Assembly (NCBI GenBank): GCA_963805855.1
Contig: CAWDVW010000005.1
Coordinates: 864,001 to 928,000, forward strand
Length of the DNA stretch: 64,000 nt
Source of the DNA: Candidatus Dadabacteria bacterium
GTDB taxonomy: Bacteria; Desulfobacterota_D; UBA1144; Nemesobacterales; CSP1-2
Direction: 5' to 3'
Below, in pieces: positions 55,157 to 60,858 of this stretch. How positions within the stretch are numbered: position 1 is the first letter of the stretch; each line of letters opens with the position of its first letter. Made by a program: the position numbers and the translations under genes. Under the pieces are notes generated by a model. It saw only the letters and a list, made by a program, of their open reading frames with translations. It did no database searches and was not told where the DNA came from.

Positions 55157-57464
<2,308 letters not shown>

Positions 57465-57609
57465 TTCAAAGGTTATGATTCACAGACACAGTTACTGGGG
57501 ATCCAGATTTTAAAGAAGTAATTGTACCCGACTAATGAATTCGGTAATTGCTATTATGCACACATGTCTATGTTTACTGACTGGATGAGTTTGAAGGGAG
57601 ATATTTAAA

Positions 57610-58014
57610 TTGGCAGACACACTAAATCTCAGGGTGATCACCCCTTCAAAGCTGGTAATAGATGAAGAGGTGGATGAGGTTGTTGCCCCTGGTGATTCAG
57701 GGGAGTTCGGAGTACTCCCAGGACACTGTCCTTTTATAACCACACTGATGCCAGGGGAGCTTACCTACAAAATTAATGGAGCGGGAAAATCTATGATCAT
57801 TGACAGTGGAATAGCAGAGGTATCAGACGATAGGGTCAATGTGTTAACAGATAATGTCTTAAAATCCGAAGAAATCGATCCCGAGGCGGCAAGAAGAGAA
57901 GCCGAATCCATTTTAGAGGAACTCAAAGACTTTGGTGGTGGCAATAAGGAATTCAAGGAGATAGAAAGAAGGCTGAAATTAGCAGAGGTGAAGGCAAACG
58001 TCAAGAGAGCCTAA
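57610..58014 (+). CDS. atpC: ATP synthase F1 subunit epsilon
   Basis: LRVITP, GEFGVLPGH. Confidence 0.95.
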   Translation: MADTLNLRVITPSKLVIDEEVDEVVAPGDSGEFGVLPGHCPFITTLMPGELTYKINGAGKSMIIDSGIAEVSDDRVNVLTDNVLKSEEIDPEAARREAESILEELKDFGGGNKEFKEIERRLKLAEVKANVKRA

Positions 58015-58124
58015 GAATCAACCCCCCTAACGCCCGAGGATATACGCCCTCTTTTAAGAAATGGGAGTTTTGAAAAAATAGTCTATCTGTTGAAATGCCG
58101 CTTCTAGCTATTTCTGATGCTGGG

Positions 58125-58913
58125 CTATCCCAAGGATCCCTTGTCGACCCACACACGGGTAACCTTAATCTGCCGTATTAGTGGTTTAATCATGGATACA
58201 AGGAAAAGTGTAAATTCTTTCTCAGCCCTTATTAAGTTGGCTCTTGGAGGAAAGTGCTCTTTCCTTAGGACTCGGGTTATCTCTCGCAATTTCTTCTCAG
58301 AATAATAGCCATTTTCTCTAAGAACTGATTGTATTTGTTTCTTTGTAGCCTTCTGAGCATCACAGTGTGTGGGAAAAGCCTCTAAGAACTGCAGAGACAC
58401 AATACAAGATATATCATTGAATAGATTGAGGGCCTGTGGAAAATATTGTCGCAGAGAATCTCTGAGCTGATTCGATAGTTTCGTCTTAAGTTCAACGAGT
58501 GATTCTCTATCCCTTAGAACGATTCCGAGCTCTTGGGTGAGTTGATCGTCTGCAGTGACTGCATTCAAAGTACTTATGTCTGTGCGCAAGACATTTGCTA
58601 TAACAAATGCGTCGAAACTATCGCTTTTTACACCTGAAGTCTTATACCTCTTTCTGAACTTATCCATAGAGTTGGAATTTATTAGATAGACCTTGTAGTC
58701 GTAGCTGATTAAAAAGTCTATAACCCTTTGATTAGAGGTCTCAATGGCGAAGATGATCTCGTGCTCTTTACACAGGTGACGAATAGTGGAAAGGGCATAC
58801 ATGAAGCCATCGAGATCATTGTTGATTACAAAATCTTTAATCGGATTACCTTTGTCATCTATGATGAACAAAGTTAATTGCTCCCAAGACCAGTCAATAC
58901 CACAGTAAAGCAT
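58125..58913 (-). pseudogene. IS110-family recombinase/transposase, C-terminally truncated
   Basis: DEDD RuvC-like residues in GIDWS, FAIE and KSDSFD; L..LRDR..L....T...NQLR..L..YFP coiled coil; resemblance ends at about QIK (~58162) and the C-terminal Tnp domain is absent; AAGGAGG RBS. Confidence 0.88.
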
Positions 58914-58949
58914 ATCTATGCCTCCTTATTAATTAGATTTTAAATGACC

Positions 58950-59090
58950 TCGATGCTCTGTTATTCTTATATGGGTTCTCCAGGAACGTAACACTATGGA
59001 ACTTAGAGCATGATTAGCTTGGAGAGGGACATAACTACCCAAAGTGGTCAGGCCACAAGCCCACCAGGGTCCTCTCTCCAAGTTGGTCTT
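58950..59090 (-). ncRNA. Predicted IS110 bridge RNA (target-binding loop followed by donor-binding loop)
   Basis: Two stem/internal-loop/stem hairpins (59018-59082 and 58953-59011); loop segments match the element's left junction (59057-59067 = 59108-59118; 58966-58973 is the reverse complement of 59103-59110). Ends approximate. Confidence 0.8.
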
Positions 59091-59095
59091 TGGGA

Positions 59096-59104
59096 AGCAT
59101 AACA
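59096..59104 (-). promoter_or_regulatory. Extended -10 element (TGnTATGCT) just inside the IS110 left end
   Basis: Minus strand TGTTATGCT, hexamer 7 nt from the core and upstream of the predicted RNA; no -35 in the linear form. Confidence 0.55.
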
Positions 59105-59108
59105 TATA

Positions 59109-59132
59109 AGCCCACCAGTCTTGCTGGTGGGT
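59109..59132. repeat. REP-like palindrome interrupted by the IS110 insertion
   Basis: CCCACCAG-TCTTG-CTGGTGGG perfect 8-bp stem abutting the core. Confidence 0.7.
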
Positions 59133-59162
59133 ATAAAGGGTATTGAGTACTATCACATAGAT

Positions 59163-59308
59163 GTAGTGGAGAACTCCAGTCCTCCAAAAACGACGACCAA
59201 AAGGTCGCCGATGCATTTGGACTAGATTTAATCGGGACTGGAAAGTCCCGACTATCCATGATAAATAATATTGTCATCAATTACGATAGGCGGGGTTTTC
59301 CAACCCGG
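59163..59308. repeat. Cluster of GTAG/GATAG-footed REP-like hairpins
   Basis: GTAG-TGGAGAACT-CC-AGTCCTCCA (59163-59186); TCGGGACT-GGAA-AGTCCCGA-CTATC (59232-59256); GATAG-GCGGGGTT-TTCC-AACCCGG (59285-59308). Confidence 0.6.
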
Positions 59309-59507
59309 TATCGACAAAACATTTGGAATTGGAAACCTGAATGTTTACACAGCAATTACGGTAAACCATCAGTCCCTGTCCTGGGCCGTTGCACAGGGCT
59401 TACGACAGGCTTAGGCGAAGGGTTGCTGGTGGGATGATCTATGGTCACGAGCAAGCCTGTCCTTGTATATTAATAAGTGGATCGTGACGACCTAACCAGT
59501 CAAAAAT

Positions 59508-60858
59508 TCACATGAGGTTATAATAGTCGAGCCCAAGGTGGGTAATTAACTCCTCGCCCTTGAGATAGCGGAGGGTATTTTTTAACTTCATGAGCTGTAT
59601 AAACAGGTCATGCTCGGGATAGAGGTTTTCCCCGACCATAGGACTCTTGAAATAAAAAGAGAGCCATTCCTGAATGCCGTATAAATACGCTCTTTGAGCA
59701 AGATCCATAAAGAGCACTAAATCAAGGACTATAGGGGCAGCGAGGATACTGTCACGACAAAGAAAATTGACCTTAATCTGCATTGGATACCCAAGCCATC
59801 CAAATATATCTATATTATCCCAAGCCTCTTTCTCGTCGCCTCTCGGCGGATAGTAATTGATTCTTACCTTATGGTAGTAGTCTGAATACAGATCAGGGTA
59901 TAATTCCGGTTGAAGAATGTACTCTAGTACACCCAGTTTGCTGACCTCTTTAGTCTTAAATGAGTAGGGATCATCGAGAACCTCACCGTCTCTATTTCCG
60001 AGTATATTGGTTGAAAACCAACCGTTAACGCCTATCATTCTACTCTTGAGCCCTGGTGCCAAGATCGTCTTCATTAGAGTTTGGCCTGTTTTGAAGTCCT
60101 TGCCAGCTATAGGAACCTTCTTTACTTTTGCAAGCTCAATCAGCGCCGGTATGTCCGCCGAAAGGTTTGGAGCCCCATTTGCATATGGCACGCCACTTTT
60201 TATTGCCGCGTATGCATAAATCATGCTAGGGGCTATATGCGGATGATTATCCTTTAACCCCATTTCAAAACTCCTGATAGATTGATGAACCGCAGAAGAC
60301 TCAATATATGTTTCGGTGCTACCACACCATACCATTACCATCCGATCGAGCTTATTCAGCTTACTAAAATTTGATATATCTTCTATGATTTGTTCGGCAA
60401 GATCCATTTTGGTCTTCCCCTTCTTTAAGTTCTTGCCGTTGAGTCTCTTAACAAACTTCTTATCGAACACTGCCGGCATAGGCTCAATATCCTCTAGAAC
60501 TGCTCGCAAGTCATCTAGAAGGCCCGACCTCAAGCACGCCCGCTTTAATTGCTGCTTCGTATATGTTGTCGTTGAATATGTCCCATCCACCGAATGCTAT
60601 ATTAGATATATCTGCTAAAGGGATGAATTCTTTGATGAGAGGAACCTTCCTTTCAGTCCTCTTACCGAGTCTTATCGTTCCTAATTGAGTGAGTGAACCT
60701 ATTGGCTTTCCAATTCCCCTTTTTATTGCTTCAATCCCGGCAATAAAGGTAGTACTTACAGCACCACCCATACCGGGGAGCAAAACCCCGAGTCTCCCAT
60801 TGGGAGAGCCAATGACCTTTTTCTTCTTAAGTCTGGTATTCCGGCTTTTGGTTGGCAA
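59508..60858 (-). CDS. ino1: myo-inositol-1-phosphate synthase, single-base frameshift at ~60522-60530
   Basis: GMGGAVSTT and FGGWD in the first ORF; WCGSTE, NGAPN, GKDFKTGQT, NILGNRDG, CRDSILAAP, SFYFKSP in the second; deleting one G joins them. Confidence 0.88.

What the first reader, a model, noticed from the sequence alone, without database searches (positions are those of the whole stretch)
59103..59132. The IS110 element appears to target a GTAG-footed REP palindrome
Seen: the left flank is a perfect hairpin, CCCACCAG-N5-CTGGTGGG, ending at the core. The right target guide GGGTAG (59035-59040) predicts that the empty site continues CTACCC. The rebuilt empty site reads GTAG-CCCACCAG-TCTTG-CTGGTGGG on the plus strand, the GTAG-plus-hairpin layout of REPs. 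Established: IS621 inserts into E. coli REPs. Inference: RNA-programmed targeting of a multi-copy intergenic repeat as a safe harbour, with the core inside the CTAC foot.
Basis: partly seen in the sequence, partly recalled or inferred. Interest (0 to 1): 0.7.

Follow-up and report, generated by a model that had tools for sequence, protein, structure and literature searches.

The report
IS110 element inserted in a REP palindrome

Summary
Window 59111-59131 is a perfect 8-bp/5-nt-loop hairpin that abuts the left end of an IS110-family element on the minus strand.

- **Repeat family.** The hairpin has 16 copies with 3 or fewer mismatches in this genome. Of the 14 unoccupied copies, 9 are preceded by GGGTAG. 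All 16 are extragenic.
- **Both junctions.** A full-length copy on contig C7 reads hairpin-CT-[1430 bp]-CT-ACCC.
- **Empty allele.** The atpC-ino1 locus reads GGGTAG|CCCACCAG in a congener and in contigs of two metagenome runs.
- **Bridge RNA.** The 195-nt left end folds into two internal loops. CUGGUGGGCU and GGGUAG match the target. CAUAGUGUUAC and CAUAUAAG match the element's own ends.
- **Independent insertion.** A metagenome contig shows another insertion next to a variant hairpin.

It lacks the catalytic C-terminal domain and the right end.

REP targeting by IS110 elements is well documented for IS621, ISPpu9 and ISPpu10. This is a new member of a known kind, here in a Dadabacteria-lineage genome.

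The parts
59111..59131 (.). REP hairpin CCCACCAG-TCTTG-CTGGTGGG. This is the left half of the target. On the element strand its 3' arm, CTGGTGGG, is the left target.
   Evidence: There are 16 copies with 3 or fewer mismatches in the genome, all extragenic.
59109..59110 (-). Core dinucleotide CT (AG on the plus strand) at the left junction.
   Evidence: CT on both sides of the full-length copy. The joint runs 58160->59109.
58914..59108 (-). Left end of the IS (195 nt), encoding the bridge RNA upstream of the transposase start codon.
   Evidence: Identical in the C7 copy.
59019..59081 (-). Target-binding loop: outer stem UUGGAGAGAGGAC/GUCCCUCUCCAA enclosing an internal loop and the inner hairpin GUGG-CCUGA-CCAC.
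   Evidence: Constrained and unconstrained folds; coordinates.
59058..59067 (-). Left target guide CUGGUGGGCU. It is identical to the 8 nt of left target plus the CT core.
   Evidence: The 10-mer appears in 8e-5 of 200,000 shuffles of the left end.
59035..59040 (-). Right target guide GGGUAG, complementary to CT+ACCC (the GGGTAG foot of the REP).
   Evidence: 0.034 of shuffles. The foot is seen.
58953..59011 (-). Donor-binding loop: outer stem AUGCUCU/AGAGCAU with the inner hairpin GUUC-CUGGA-GAAC.
58988..58998 (-). Left donor guide CAUAGUGUUAC. It is identical to the last 10 nt of the full-length element's right end plus the C of the core.
   Evidence: 9e-5 of shuffles. The right end ...CATAGTGTTA-CT was read.
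58966..58973 (-). Right donor guide CAUAUAAG, complementary to CT+TATATG (core plus the first bases of the left end).
   Evidence: 0.005 of shuffles.
58125..58913 (-). Truncated transposase frame (262 aa). It has the DEDD/RuvC-like domain only. It follows the full-length protein to about residue 250, then reads out of the element into flanking DNA.
   Evidence: PF01548 only; the full-length copy has PF02371 at 267-351.
58157..58163 (.). Truncation junction. The REP foot remnant GGGTA(A) is joined to internal IS sequence. About 480 bp of the element, including its right end, are missing.
   Evidence: The empty allele ends GGGTAG here. This junction is seen only in the window assembly.

Best explanation
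An IS110-family element carrying a 5' bridge RNA inserted site-specifically at the CT that separates the GGGTAG foot from the stem of a REP-type palindrome (GGGTAG-CCCACCAG-TCTTG-CTGGTGGG).

The RNA made from the element's 195-nt left end has two internal loops.

- The first loop carries CUGGUGGGCU, the same sequence as the left target plus core. It also carries GGGUAG, the complement of core plus ACCC. This loop selects the REP.
- The second loop carries CAUAGUGUUAC and CAUAUAAG. These match the joined right and left ends of the element and select the donor.

The recombinase has a DEDD domain plus a serine-bearing C-terminal domain. It exchanges strands at the CT of donor and target and leaves CT on both sides.

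The copy in the window kept the left junction and an intact bridge-RNA region. It later lost about 480 bp: the C-terminal domain and the right end. It cannot move by itself. The intact 1430-bp copy is on contig C7.

**Shown:** the junctions, the empty alleles, the repeat family, the guide matches, and the domain content.
**Inferred from the IS621 and ISPpu10 literature:** that the RNA is made and guides the reaction.
For: - **Shared sequence.** The two copies in the genome share window 58159-59131 at 99.9% identity, ending exactly at the hairpin.
- **Full-length copy.** It reads hairpin-CT-TATATG...CATAGTGTTA-CT-ACCC and has a 409-aa ORF.
- **Transposase family.** PF01548 plus PF02371. NF033542 'IS110 family RNA-guided transposase' scores 171.8 bits against a cut-off of 140. 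There are distant matches to the ISCro4 and IS621 transposase structures.
- **Hairpin copies in this genome.** 16 copies; 9 of the 14 unoccupied ones are preceded by GGGTAG.
- **Hairpin copies elsewhere.** 25 loci in four other assemblies: 20 continue ACCC and 1 continues into the IS.
- **Empty allele at the same locus.** Congener G001 reads CACACAAGGGTAG|CCCACCAG...TATAAACGG, and another G001 contig shows the occupied form with the same right flank. One contig each in DNA runs X1 and X2 joins 58160 to 59109 with zero mismatches in the 138-261 nt of left flank.
- **Independent insertion.** Metagenome contig L057 has the insertion next to the variant hairpin TCCACCAG-CAAGA-CTGGTGGA-CT.
- **Guides.** All four guide strings lie on the expected sides of two stem-bounded internal loops. 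Their shuffle frequencies are 8e-5, 0.034, 9e-5 and 0.005.
- **Published behaviour.** IS110 elements insert into REPs under bridge-RNA guidance (PMC11208160, passages read; PMC1525189, abstract read).
Against: - No RNA evidence for the bridge RNA. The one RNA run laid (X20) has contigs only over the transposase region, and these could be DNA carry-over.
- Rfam has no match in the region.
- No covariation test was possible. Only three near-identical left ends are available (G000, a G001 fragment, L057), and their differences lie in loops and linkers.
- The unconstrained minimum-energy fold pairs the left target guide with neighbouring bases.
- The sigma-70 pattern scan found 3 promoter-like sites against a shuffle mean of 3.1.
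- The number of independent insertions is small: the window locus, the C7 locus and L057. The G001 occupied allele is at the window's locus.
- L057's guide matches its own site at only 8 of 10 left positions.
Confidence: 0.9

Rival explanations
1. The hairpin is a terminal structure of the element itself, carried along when it moves, and not a pre-existing target.
For: The identity between the two copies in this genome runs through the hairpin and stops exactly at its far end.
Against: - There are 14 hairpin copies without any IS in this genome.
- 24 of the 25 loci in four other assemblies have no IS.
- Only 2 of the 31 related genomes searched hold the IS at all.
- The same locus exists with an uninterrupted GGGTAG-hairpin in G001 and in runs X1 and X2.
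- L057 has a variant hairpin next to the same left end.
Confidence: 0.02
2. The recombinase finds the site mainly through the DNA stem-loop or through protein-DNA contacts. The RNA matches would then be secondary or coincidental.
For: All insertions lie beside a stem-loop. A 2026 preprint reports that the target stem-loop is an added specificity determinant for ISPpu10 (10.64898/2026.03.19.712850; abstract and section 7 read). L057 tolerates two left-guide mismatches while keeping the hairpin.
Against: The four guide strings sit in the positions expected from IS621. The joint chance of this is tiny. No copy sits next to the sister hairpin GGGTAG-GTCACGAG, which shares the foot, the loop and the shape but not the left-target sequence.
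Confidence: 0.05
3. The association arose the other way round: a REP or REPIN, mobilised by a RAYT, landed next to IS ends.
For: The genome has two RAYT genes and several GTAG-tagged REP families.
Against: The IS splits the foot from the stem of one REP. The two halves rejoin to the consensus REP. The empty form of the same locus carries the whole REP.
Confidence: 0.02

Closest known systems
IS621 of Escherichia coli (IS110 family; bridge RNA; inserts in REPs)
   Same: - Two-domain recombinase.
- Bridge RNA in the left end with a target loop and a donor loop.
- CT core.
- Insertion into the CTAC end of a REP. The E. coli REP queries printed in PMC11208160 end ...GGCCTAC.
- A right target guide of core plus 4 nt.
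   Different: - The protein is only distantly related: E 3e-7 to 8wt6, over the C-terminal part only. It is 409 aa against the 328-aa chain.
- The REP sequence is different.
- The host is a Dadabacteria-lineage MAG, not a gammaproteobacterium.
ISPpu10 and ISPpu9 of Pseudomonas putida (IS110 family, REP-specific)
   Same: Insertions map to copies of one intergenic REP. In that REP the sequence 5' of the left target is complementary to it, so the left target is the 3' arm of a stem-loop (10.64898/2026.03.19.712850, section 7). The geometry here is the same. REP targets there are extragenic and often in convergent pairs. ISPpu9's insertion into REPs is known to me from the search listing only.
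   Different: The stem here is 8 bp with a 5-nt loop, against roughly 5 bp there. The copy number of the target is far lower: 16 copies in this genome, as counted. No experimental data exist for this element.
GTAG-tagged REP super-family, REPINs and RAYTs
   Same: A short palindrome with an unpaired GTAG tag at one end, multi-copy, extragenic, and partly in inverted doublets. PMC3733652: abstract and passages read. The REPIN concept comes from the PMC3337134 search listing.
   Different: No RAYT gene was found flanked by this particular family. The two RAYTs in the genome are flanked by another GTAG family.

Membership tests
IS110 family (IS110 group, bridge RNA 5' of the recombinase gene) | N-terminal DEDD/RuvC-like domain (PF01548) | tested here: met
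   Window copy: E 1.3e-31. Full-length copy: 3.3e-31.
IS110 family (IS110 group, bridge RNA 5' of the recombinase gene) | C-terminal domain with the conserved serine (PF02371) | tested here: met
   Met in the full-length C7 copy: residues 267-351, E 4.7e-17. The stretch ...ITKSSGN... is present; that this motif holds the catalytic serine is my recollection. It is NOT met in the window copy, which has PF01548 only.
IS110 family (IS110 group, bridge RNA 5' of the recombinase gene) | Whole-protein match to the curated family model | tested here: met
   NF033542 'IS110 family RNA-guided transposase': 171.8 bits, cut-off 140.
IS110 family (IS110 group, bridge RNA 5' of the recombinase gene) | A 2-nt core (CT) on both sides of the element and no terminal inverted repeats | tested here: met
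   C7 copy: GGTGGG-CT-TATATGTTATGC...GACATAGTGTTA-CT-ACCC. By direct reading the two ends are not inverted repeats. The window copy has only the left junction.
IS110 family (IS110 group, bridge RNA 5' of the recombinase gene) | Non-coding end encoding an RNA with two internal loops whose sides match target and donor | tested here: met
   Sequence matches and fold only; expression was not shown.
IS110 family (IS110 group, bridge RNA 5' of the recombinase gene) | Circular intermediate and scarless excision | not testable with these tools
   Empty and occupied alleles coexist. That is equally explained by insertion polymorphism.
REP (GTAG-tagged repetitive extragenic palindrome) | Short imperfect or perfect palindrome, 20-40 bp | tested here: met
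   A 21-nt hairpin plus a 4-6-nt foot.
REP (GTAG-tagged repetitive extragenic palindrome) | Unpaired GTAG tag at one end | tested here: met
   - 9 of 14 unoccupied copies have GGGTAG. The other 5 read GGGCAG, GGTAAG, CGGTGA, GTCTCC and GGTTAG.
- 20 of 25 loci in other assemblies continue ACCC.
- Genome-wide, GTAG followed by a perfect 7-bp stem gives 246 raw hits. Other 4-mers give 19-98, and the reversed genome gives 46. Some hairpins are counted more than once, by the same rule in all counts.
REP (GTAG-tagged repetitive extragenic palindrome) | Multi-copy and extragenic | tested here: met
   There are 16 copies here. For all 16, the longest frame spanning the copy is 129 aa or less. For 500 random sites the median is 366 aa, and 79% are 150 aa or more. 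The copy number is modest for a REP.
REP (GTAG-tagged repetitive extragenic palindrome) | Association with a RAYT (REP-associated tyrosine transposase) flanked by the same REP | tested here: inconclusive
   There are ten PF01797 hits. Two ORFs pass NF047646 (94 and 99 bits, cut-off 80), but both are flanked by a different GTAG family. One copy of this hairpin lies about 200 nt upstream of one of them. The other 8 Y1 loci have no such flanks. The genome is 93.8% complete.

The most novel reading that the evidence does not exclude
The REP stem-loop acts as a structural gate in addition to RNA pairing, as proposed for ISPpu10, in a phylum far from Pseudomonas. The element uses only one arm type (CCCACCAG) of an inverted REP doublet whose sister arm (GTCACGAG) shares the foot and the loop. 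The truncated window copy persists as a recombinase-less locus that could still supply a bridge RNA in trans to the intact copy.
Probability: 0.2. Interest if true: 0.45.

Novelty: new member of a known kind. Interest (0 to 1): 0.3.

Why it matters
It extends bridge-RNA-guided REP targeting to an uncultured Dadabacteria/Desulfobacterota-lineage organism from salt-marsh-type metagenomes. The natural target and donor guides are fully readable and the empty allele is known. That makes the element a ready candidate for testing guide rules and the role of the target stem-loop outside Proteobacteria. It does not change what is known about how IS110 elements work.

Tried and rejected
- **Rfam.** An E-value search of 57400-59600 found no family.
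- **Relatives of the 409-aa transposase.** The search for related loci in genome contigs found no relative.
- **Right junction of L057.** The attempt to reach it through the genome search returned an error because the record is not held. I did not pursue it.
- **RNA run X20.** Contigs lie over 58266-58410 and 58500-58650 only. Nothing is listed over the bridge-RNA region, so this says nothing about expression.
- **Truncation junction.** The junction at 58160/58163 was not bridged by any listed contig of X1-X3. This is no proof of absence, because 22 pieces were not shown.
- **Promoter scan.** It gave no more sites than shuffles.
- **Covariation test of the bridge RNA.** Not possible: only three near-identical left ends are available.
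- **RAYT for this REP family.** None was found.
- **Choi et al. 2003 (IS621 in REPs).** The paper could not be read because it is not held. I saw only its title, in the reference list of PMC11208160.
- **Recombinase-made deletion at an internal pseudo-site.** I considered whether the truncation arose at the internal sequence AAGG-CT-TAC. By eye, that site matches the donor and target guides poorly, and the junction needs one extra base change in any scenario. I leave this open.

Full report
**1. What is at the coordinates**

The window is G000:C5:864001-928000. On the plus strand, 59111-59131 reads CCCACCAG-TCTTG-CTGGTGGG, a perfect 8-bp stem with a 5-nt loop.

Immediately to its left is a minus-strand element. 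Its only long frame (58125..58913, 262 aa) matches the IS110 DEDD domain PF01548 (E 1.3e-31) and nothing else. The element sits between the 3' ends of two convergent genes: atpC (57610..58014, +) and a myo-inositol-1-phosphate synthase gene (59508.., -).

**2. The window copy is truncated; a full-length copy is elsewhere**

BLAST against the laid genome gives one other copy, C7:605071-606044. It is 99.9% identical over window 58159-59131. The shared part ends exactly at the outer end of the hairpin.

On C7 the element continues. The sequence reads hairpin, CT, a 1430-bp body (605094-606523), CT, then ACCC.

Its ORF is 409 aa, with these matches:
- PF01548 plus PF02371.
- NF033542 'IS110 family RNA-guided transposase', 171.8 bits against a cut-off of 140.
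- Distant matches to the solved ISCro4 and IS621 transposases, E 1e-8 and 3e-7.

The window copy follows this protein to about residue 250. It then joins the REP-foot flank as ...CAGATTAAGG-TTACCCGTGTG. About 480 bp are missing, including the whole PF02371 domain and the right end.

The junction cannot be produced from a full-length insertion by one simple event:
- A deletion at the shared TAC would give AAGGCTTACCCGTG, one C more than observed.
- An exchange between two CT dinucleotides would give AAGG-CT-ACCC, one substitution away.

The same assembly carries a +1-nt difference in ino1 relative to three relatives. The missing C may therefore be an assembly indel. No listed contig of three DNA runs bridges this junction. 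I treat its exact form as unverified.

**3. The hairpin is a repeated, extragenic, GTAG-tagged palindrome**

In this genome:
- The 21-mer occurs 16 times with 3 or fewer mismatches. Two copies are IS-occupied.
- Of the 14 unoccupied copies, 9 are preceded by GGGTAG. The other 5 are preceded by GGGCAG, GGTAAG, CGGTGA, GTCTCC or GGTTAG.
- By my reading, five of the 14 are followed about 10 nt later by an inverted sister hairpin, GTCACGAG-CAAGA-CTCGTGAC-CTACCC. That is a REPIN-like doublet.
- All 16 lie outside long open frames. The longest spanning frame is 129 aa or less, against a median of 366 aa for 500 random sites.

In other assemblies, a scan of one genome per species for the hairpin plus CT found 25 loci in four MAG assemblies. 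The records title them Candidatus Dadabacteria, Thermodesulfobacteriota, Desulfobacterota and Deltaproteobacteria. Of the 25, 20 continue ACCC, 4 continue ACAC, ATCC, ATCC or AGCC, and 1 continues into the IS left end.

The genome as a whole is rich in GTAG-footed hairpins of several families:
- There are 246 raw hits, against 19-98 for other tetramers and 46 in the reversed genome. Some hairpins are counted more than once, in every count alike.
- It encodes two proteins passing the REP-associated tyrosine transposase model. Both are flanked by a different GTAG family.
- No RAYT was found for the family discussed here.

This layout matches the GTAG-tagged REP super-family described in PMC3733652 (abstract and passages).

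**4. The empty site**

Four lines of evidence agree.

- (a) The two flanks of the full-length C7 copy rejoin to GGGTAG-CCCACCAG... with one CT.
- (b) In congener G001, one contig runs from atpC through ...CACACAAGGGTAG|CCCACCAGTCTTGCTGGTGGGTATAAACGG. A second contig starts inside the IS left end and runs through the same hairpin and the same right flank into ino1. Both alleles of this very locus are therefore in that assembly. The two matching loci are not counted again.
- (c) In DNA runs X1 and X2, one contig each joins window 58160 to 59109, skipping 948 bases. There are no mismatches in the 138 and 261 nt of left flank. The right sides are only 26 and 23 nt because the contigs end in the repeat.
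- (d) Congener G002 has a 211-bp spacer with neither hairpin nor IS. The REP cluster is therefore itself a lineage-specific addition.

**5. More insertions**

Among 31 related genomes, the IS is found only in G000 and as a 144-nt contig-end fragment in G001.

An unbiased scan of metagenome contigs with the first 24 nt of the left end gave one locus, L057. There the left end is preceded by ttCCACCAG-CAAGA-CTGGTGGA-CT, a variant of the same hairpin in a different flank.

That makes three independent sites, all with the left end against the hairpin.

**6. The guide RNA**

On the element strand, the 195-nt left end contains the following, in order (coordinates):

| Feature | Sequence | Window coordinates |
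|---|---|---|
| First loop, outer stem | UUGGAGAGAGGAC...GUCCCUCUCCAA | within 59019-59081 |
| First loop, 5' side | CUGGUGGGCU | 59058-59067 |
| First loop, inner hairpin | GUGG-CCUGA-CCAC | 59044-59056 |
| First loop, 3' side | GGGUAG | 59035-59040 |
| Second loop, outer stem | AUGCUCU...AGAGCAU | within 58953-59011 |
| Second loop, 5' side | CAUAGUGUUAC | 58988-58998 |
| Second loop, inner hairpin | GUUC-CUGGA-GAAC | 58975-58987 |
| Second loop, 3' side | CAUAUAAG | 58966-58973 |

What each string matches:
- CUGGUGGGCU equals the 8 nt of left target plus CT.
- GGGUAG is the complement of CT-ACCC.
- CAUAGUGUUAC equals the last 10 nt of the right end plus C.
- CAUAUAAG is the complement of CT-TATATG, the start of the left end.

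In 200,000 shuffles of the left end, the four strings appear at frequencies 8e-5, 0.034, 9e-5 and 0.005.

Both outer stems and both inner hairpins appear in the unconstrained fold. The full two-loop shape appears when the four strings are kept unpaired.

This is the arrangement reported for IS621 (PMC11208160, passages). My assignment of which side pairs with which strand is recalled from that paper's figures and was not read in the passages.

G001 and L057 differ from G000 only in loops and linkers, plus the first base of the left target guide in L057. No covariation test was possible. Expression is not shown.

**7. Comparison with what is known**

- Insertion of IS110-family elements into REPs is long established. 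Sources: Tobes and Pareja 2006, PMC1525189, abstract; PMC11208160; ISPpu9, from the search listing only.
- The preprint on ISPpu10 describes the same geometry, with the left target forming the 3' arm of a target stem-loop, and reports that the stem-loop adds specificity (10.64898/2026.03.19.712850; abstract and section 7).
- A preprint on 'half-match' recombination (abstract only) offers a frame for off-target or aberrant events. I could not tie the truncation to it.

**8. Verdict**

The element is a new member of a known kind in an unusual host lineage.

The live copy is on another contig.

Noticed in passing
window 60511-60858 and 59508-60590 (minus strand), break near 60535: The myo-inositol-1-phosphate synthase gene is split into two overlapping frames. 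The window has one extra base relative to G001, G002 and G007, whose frames are intact (454 and 465 aa in the first two). This is either a frameshifted gene or an assembly indel.
   Followed up: partly
window 59231-59346: A roughly 116-nt repeat (AATCGGGACTGGAAAGTCCCGAC...GGCGGGGTTTTCCAACCC...) has dozens of copies at 73-94% identity on contigs C2, C5, C6 and C7, and in congeners G001 and G002. It is a MITE-like or composite repeat and was not characterised.
   Followed up: no
window 59163-59215: A degenerate doublet of another GTAG family (GTAGTGGAGAACTCCAGTCCTCC ... GACGACCAAAAGGTCGCC) lies next to the target hairpin. The same family (GTAGCGGAGGACTTTAGTCCTCC and its variants; 76 regex hits) flanks two RAYT genes at G000:C2:679520-680092 and C2:684600-685076.
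   Followed up: partly
window 59417-59460: A second, partial unit of the same REP family (GGGTTGCTGGTGGG-ATGATCTATG-GTCACGAGCAAGCCTGTCC). Only this part of the spacer is conserved in congener G002.
   Followed up: partly
G000:C2:116675-117112, C7:152424-152861, C7:641182-641619 (L012-L014): A second IS110-family element is present in three near-identical copies of about 1.4 kb, with different flanks. A 23-nt stretch near its right end (CCCTTGACTTTTTACATAACAGC) also occurs in the atpC-ino1 spacer of G002. It may be a solo remnant or part of that element's target.
   Followed up: no
G000 genome-wide: There are at least six distinct GTAG-footed palindrome families. Examples are GTAGAGACGCAAAATTTTGCGTCTCTAC, GTAGGGAACGCATATATGCGTTCCCTAC and GTAGGCACGAACTTGTTCGTGC. 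There are also ten Y1-transposase hits in a 3.1-Mb genome.
   Followed up: partly
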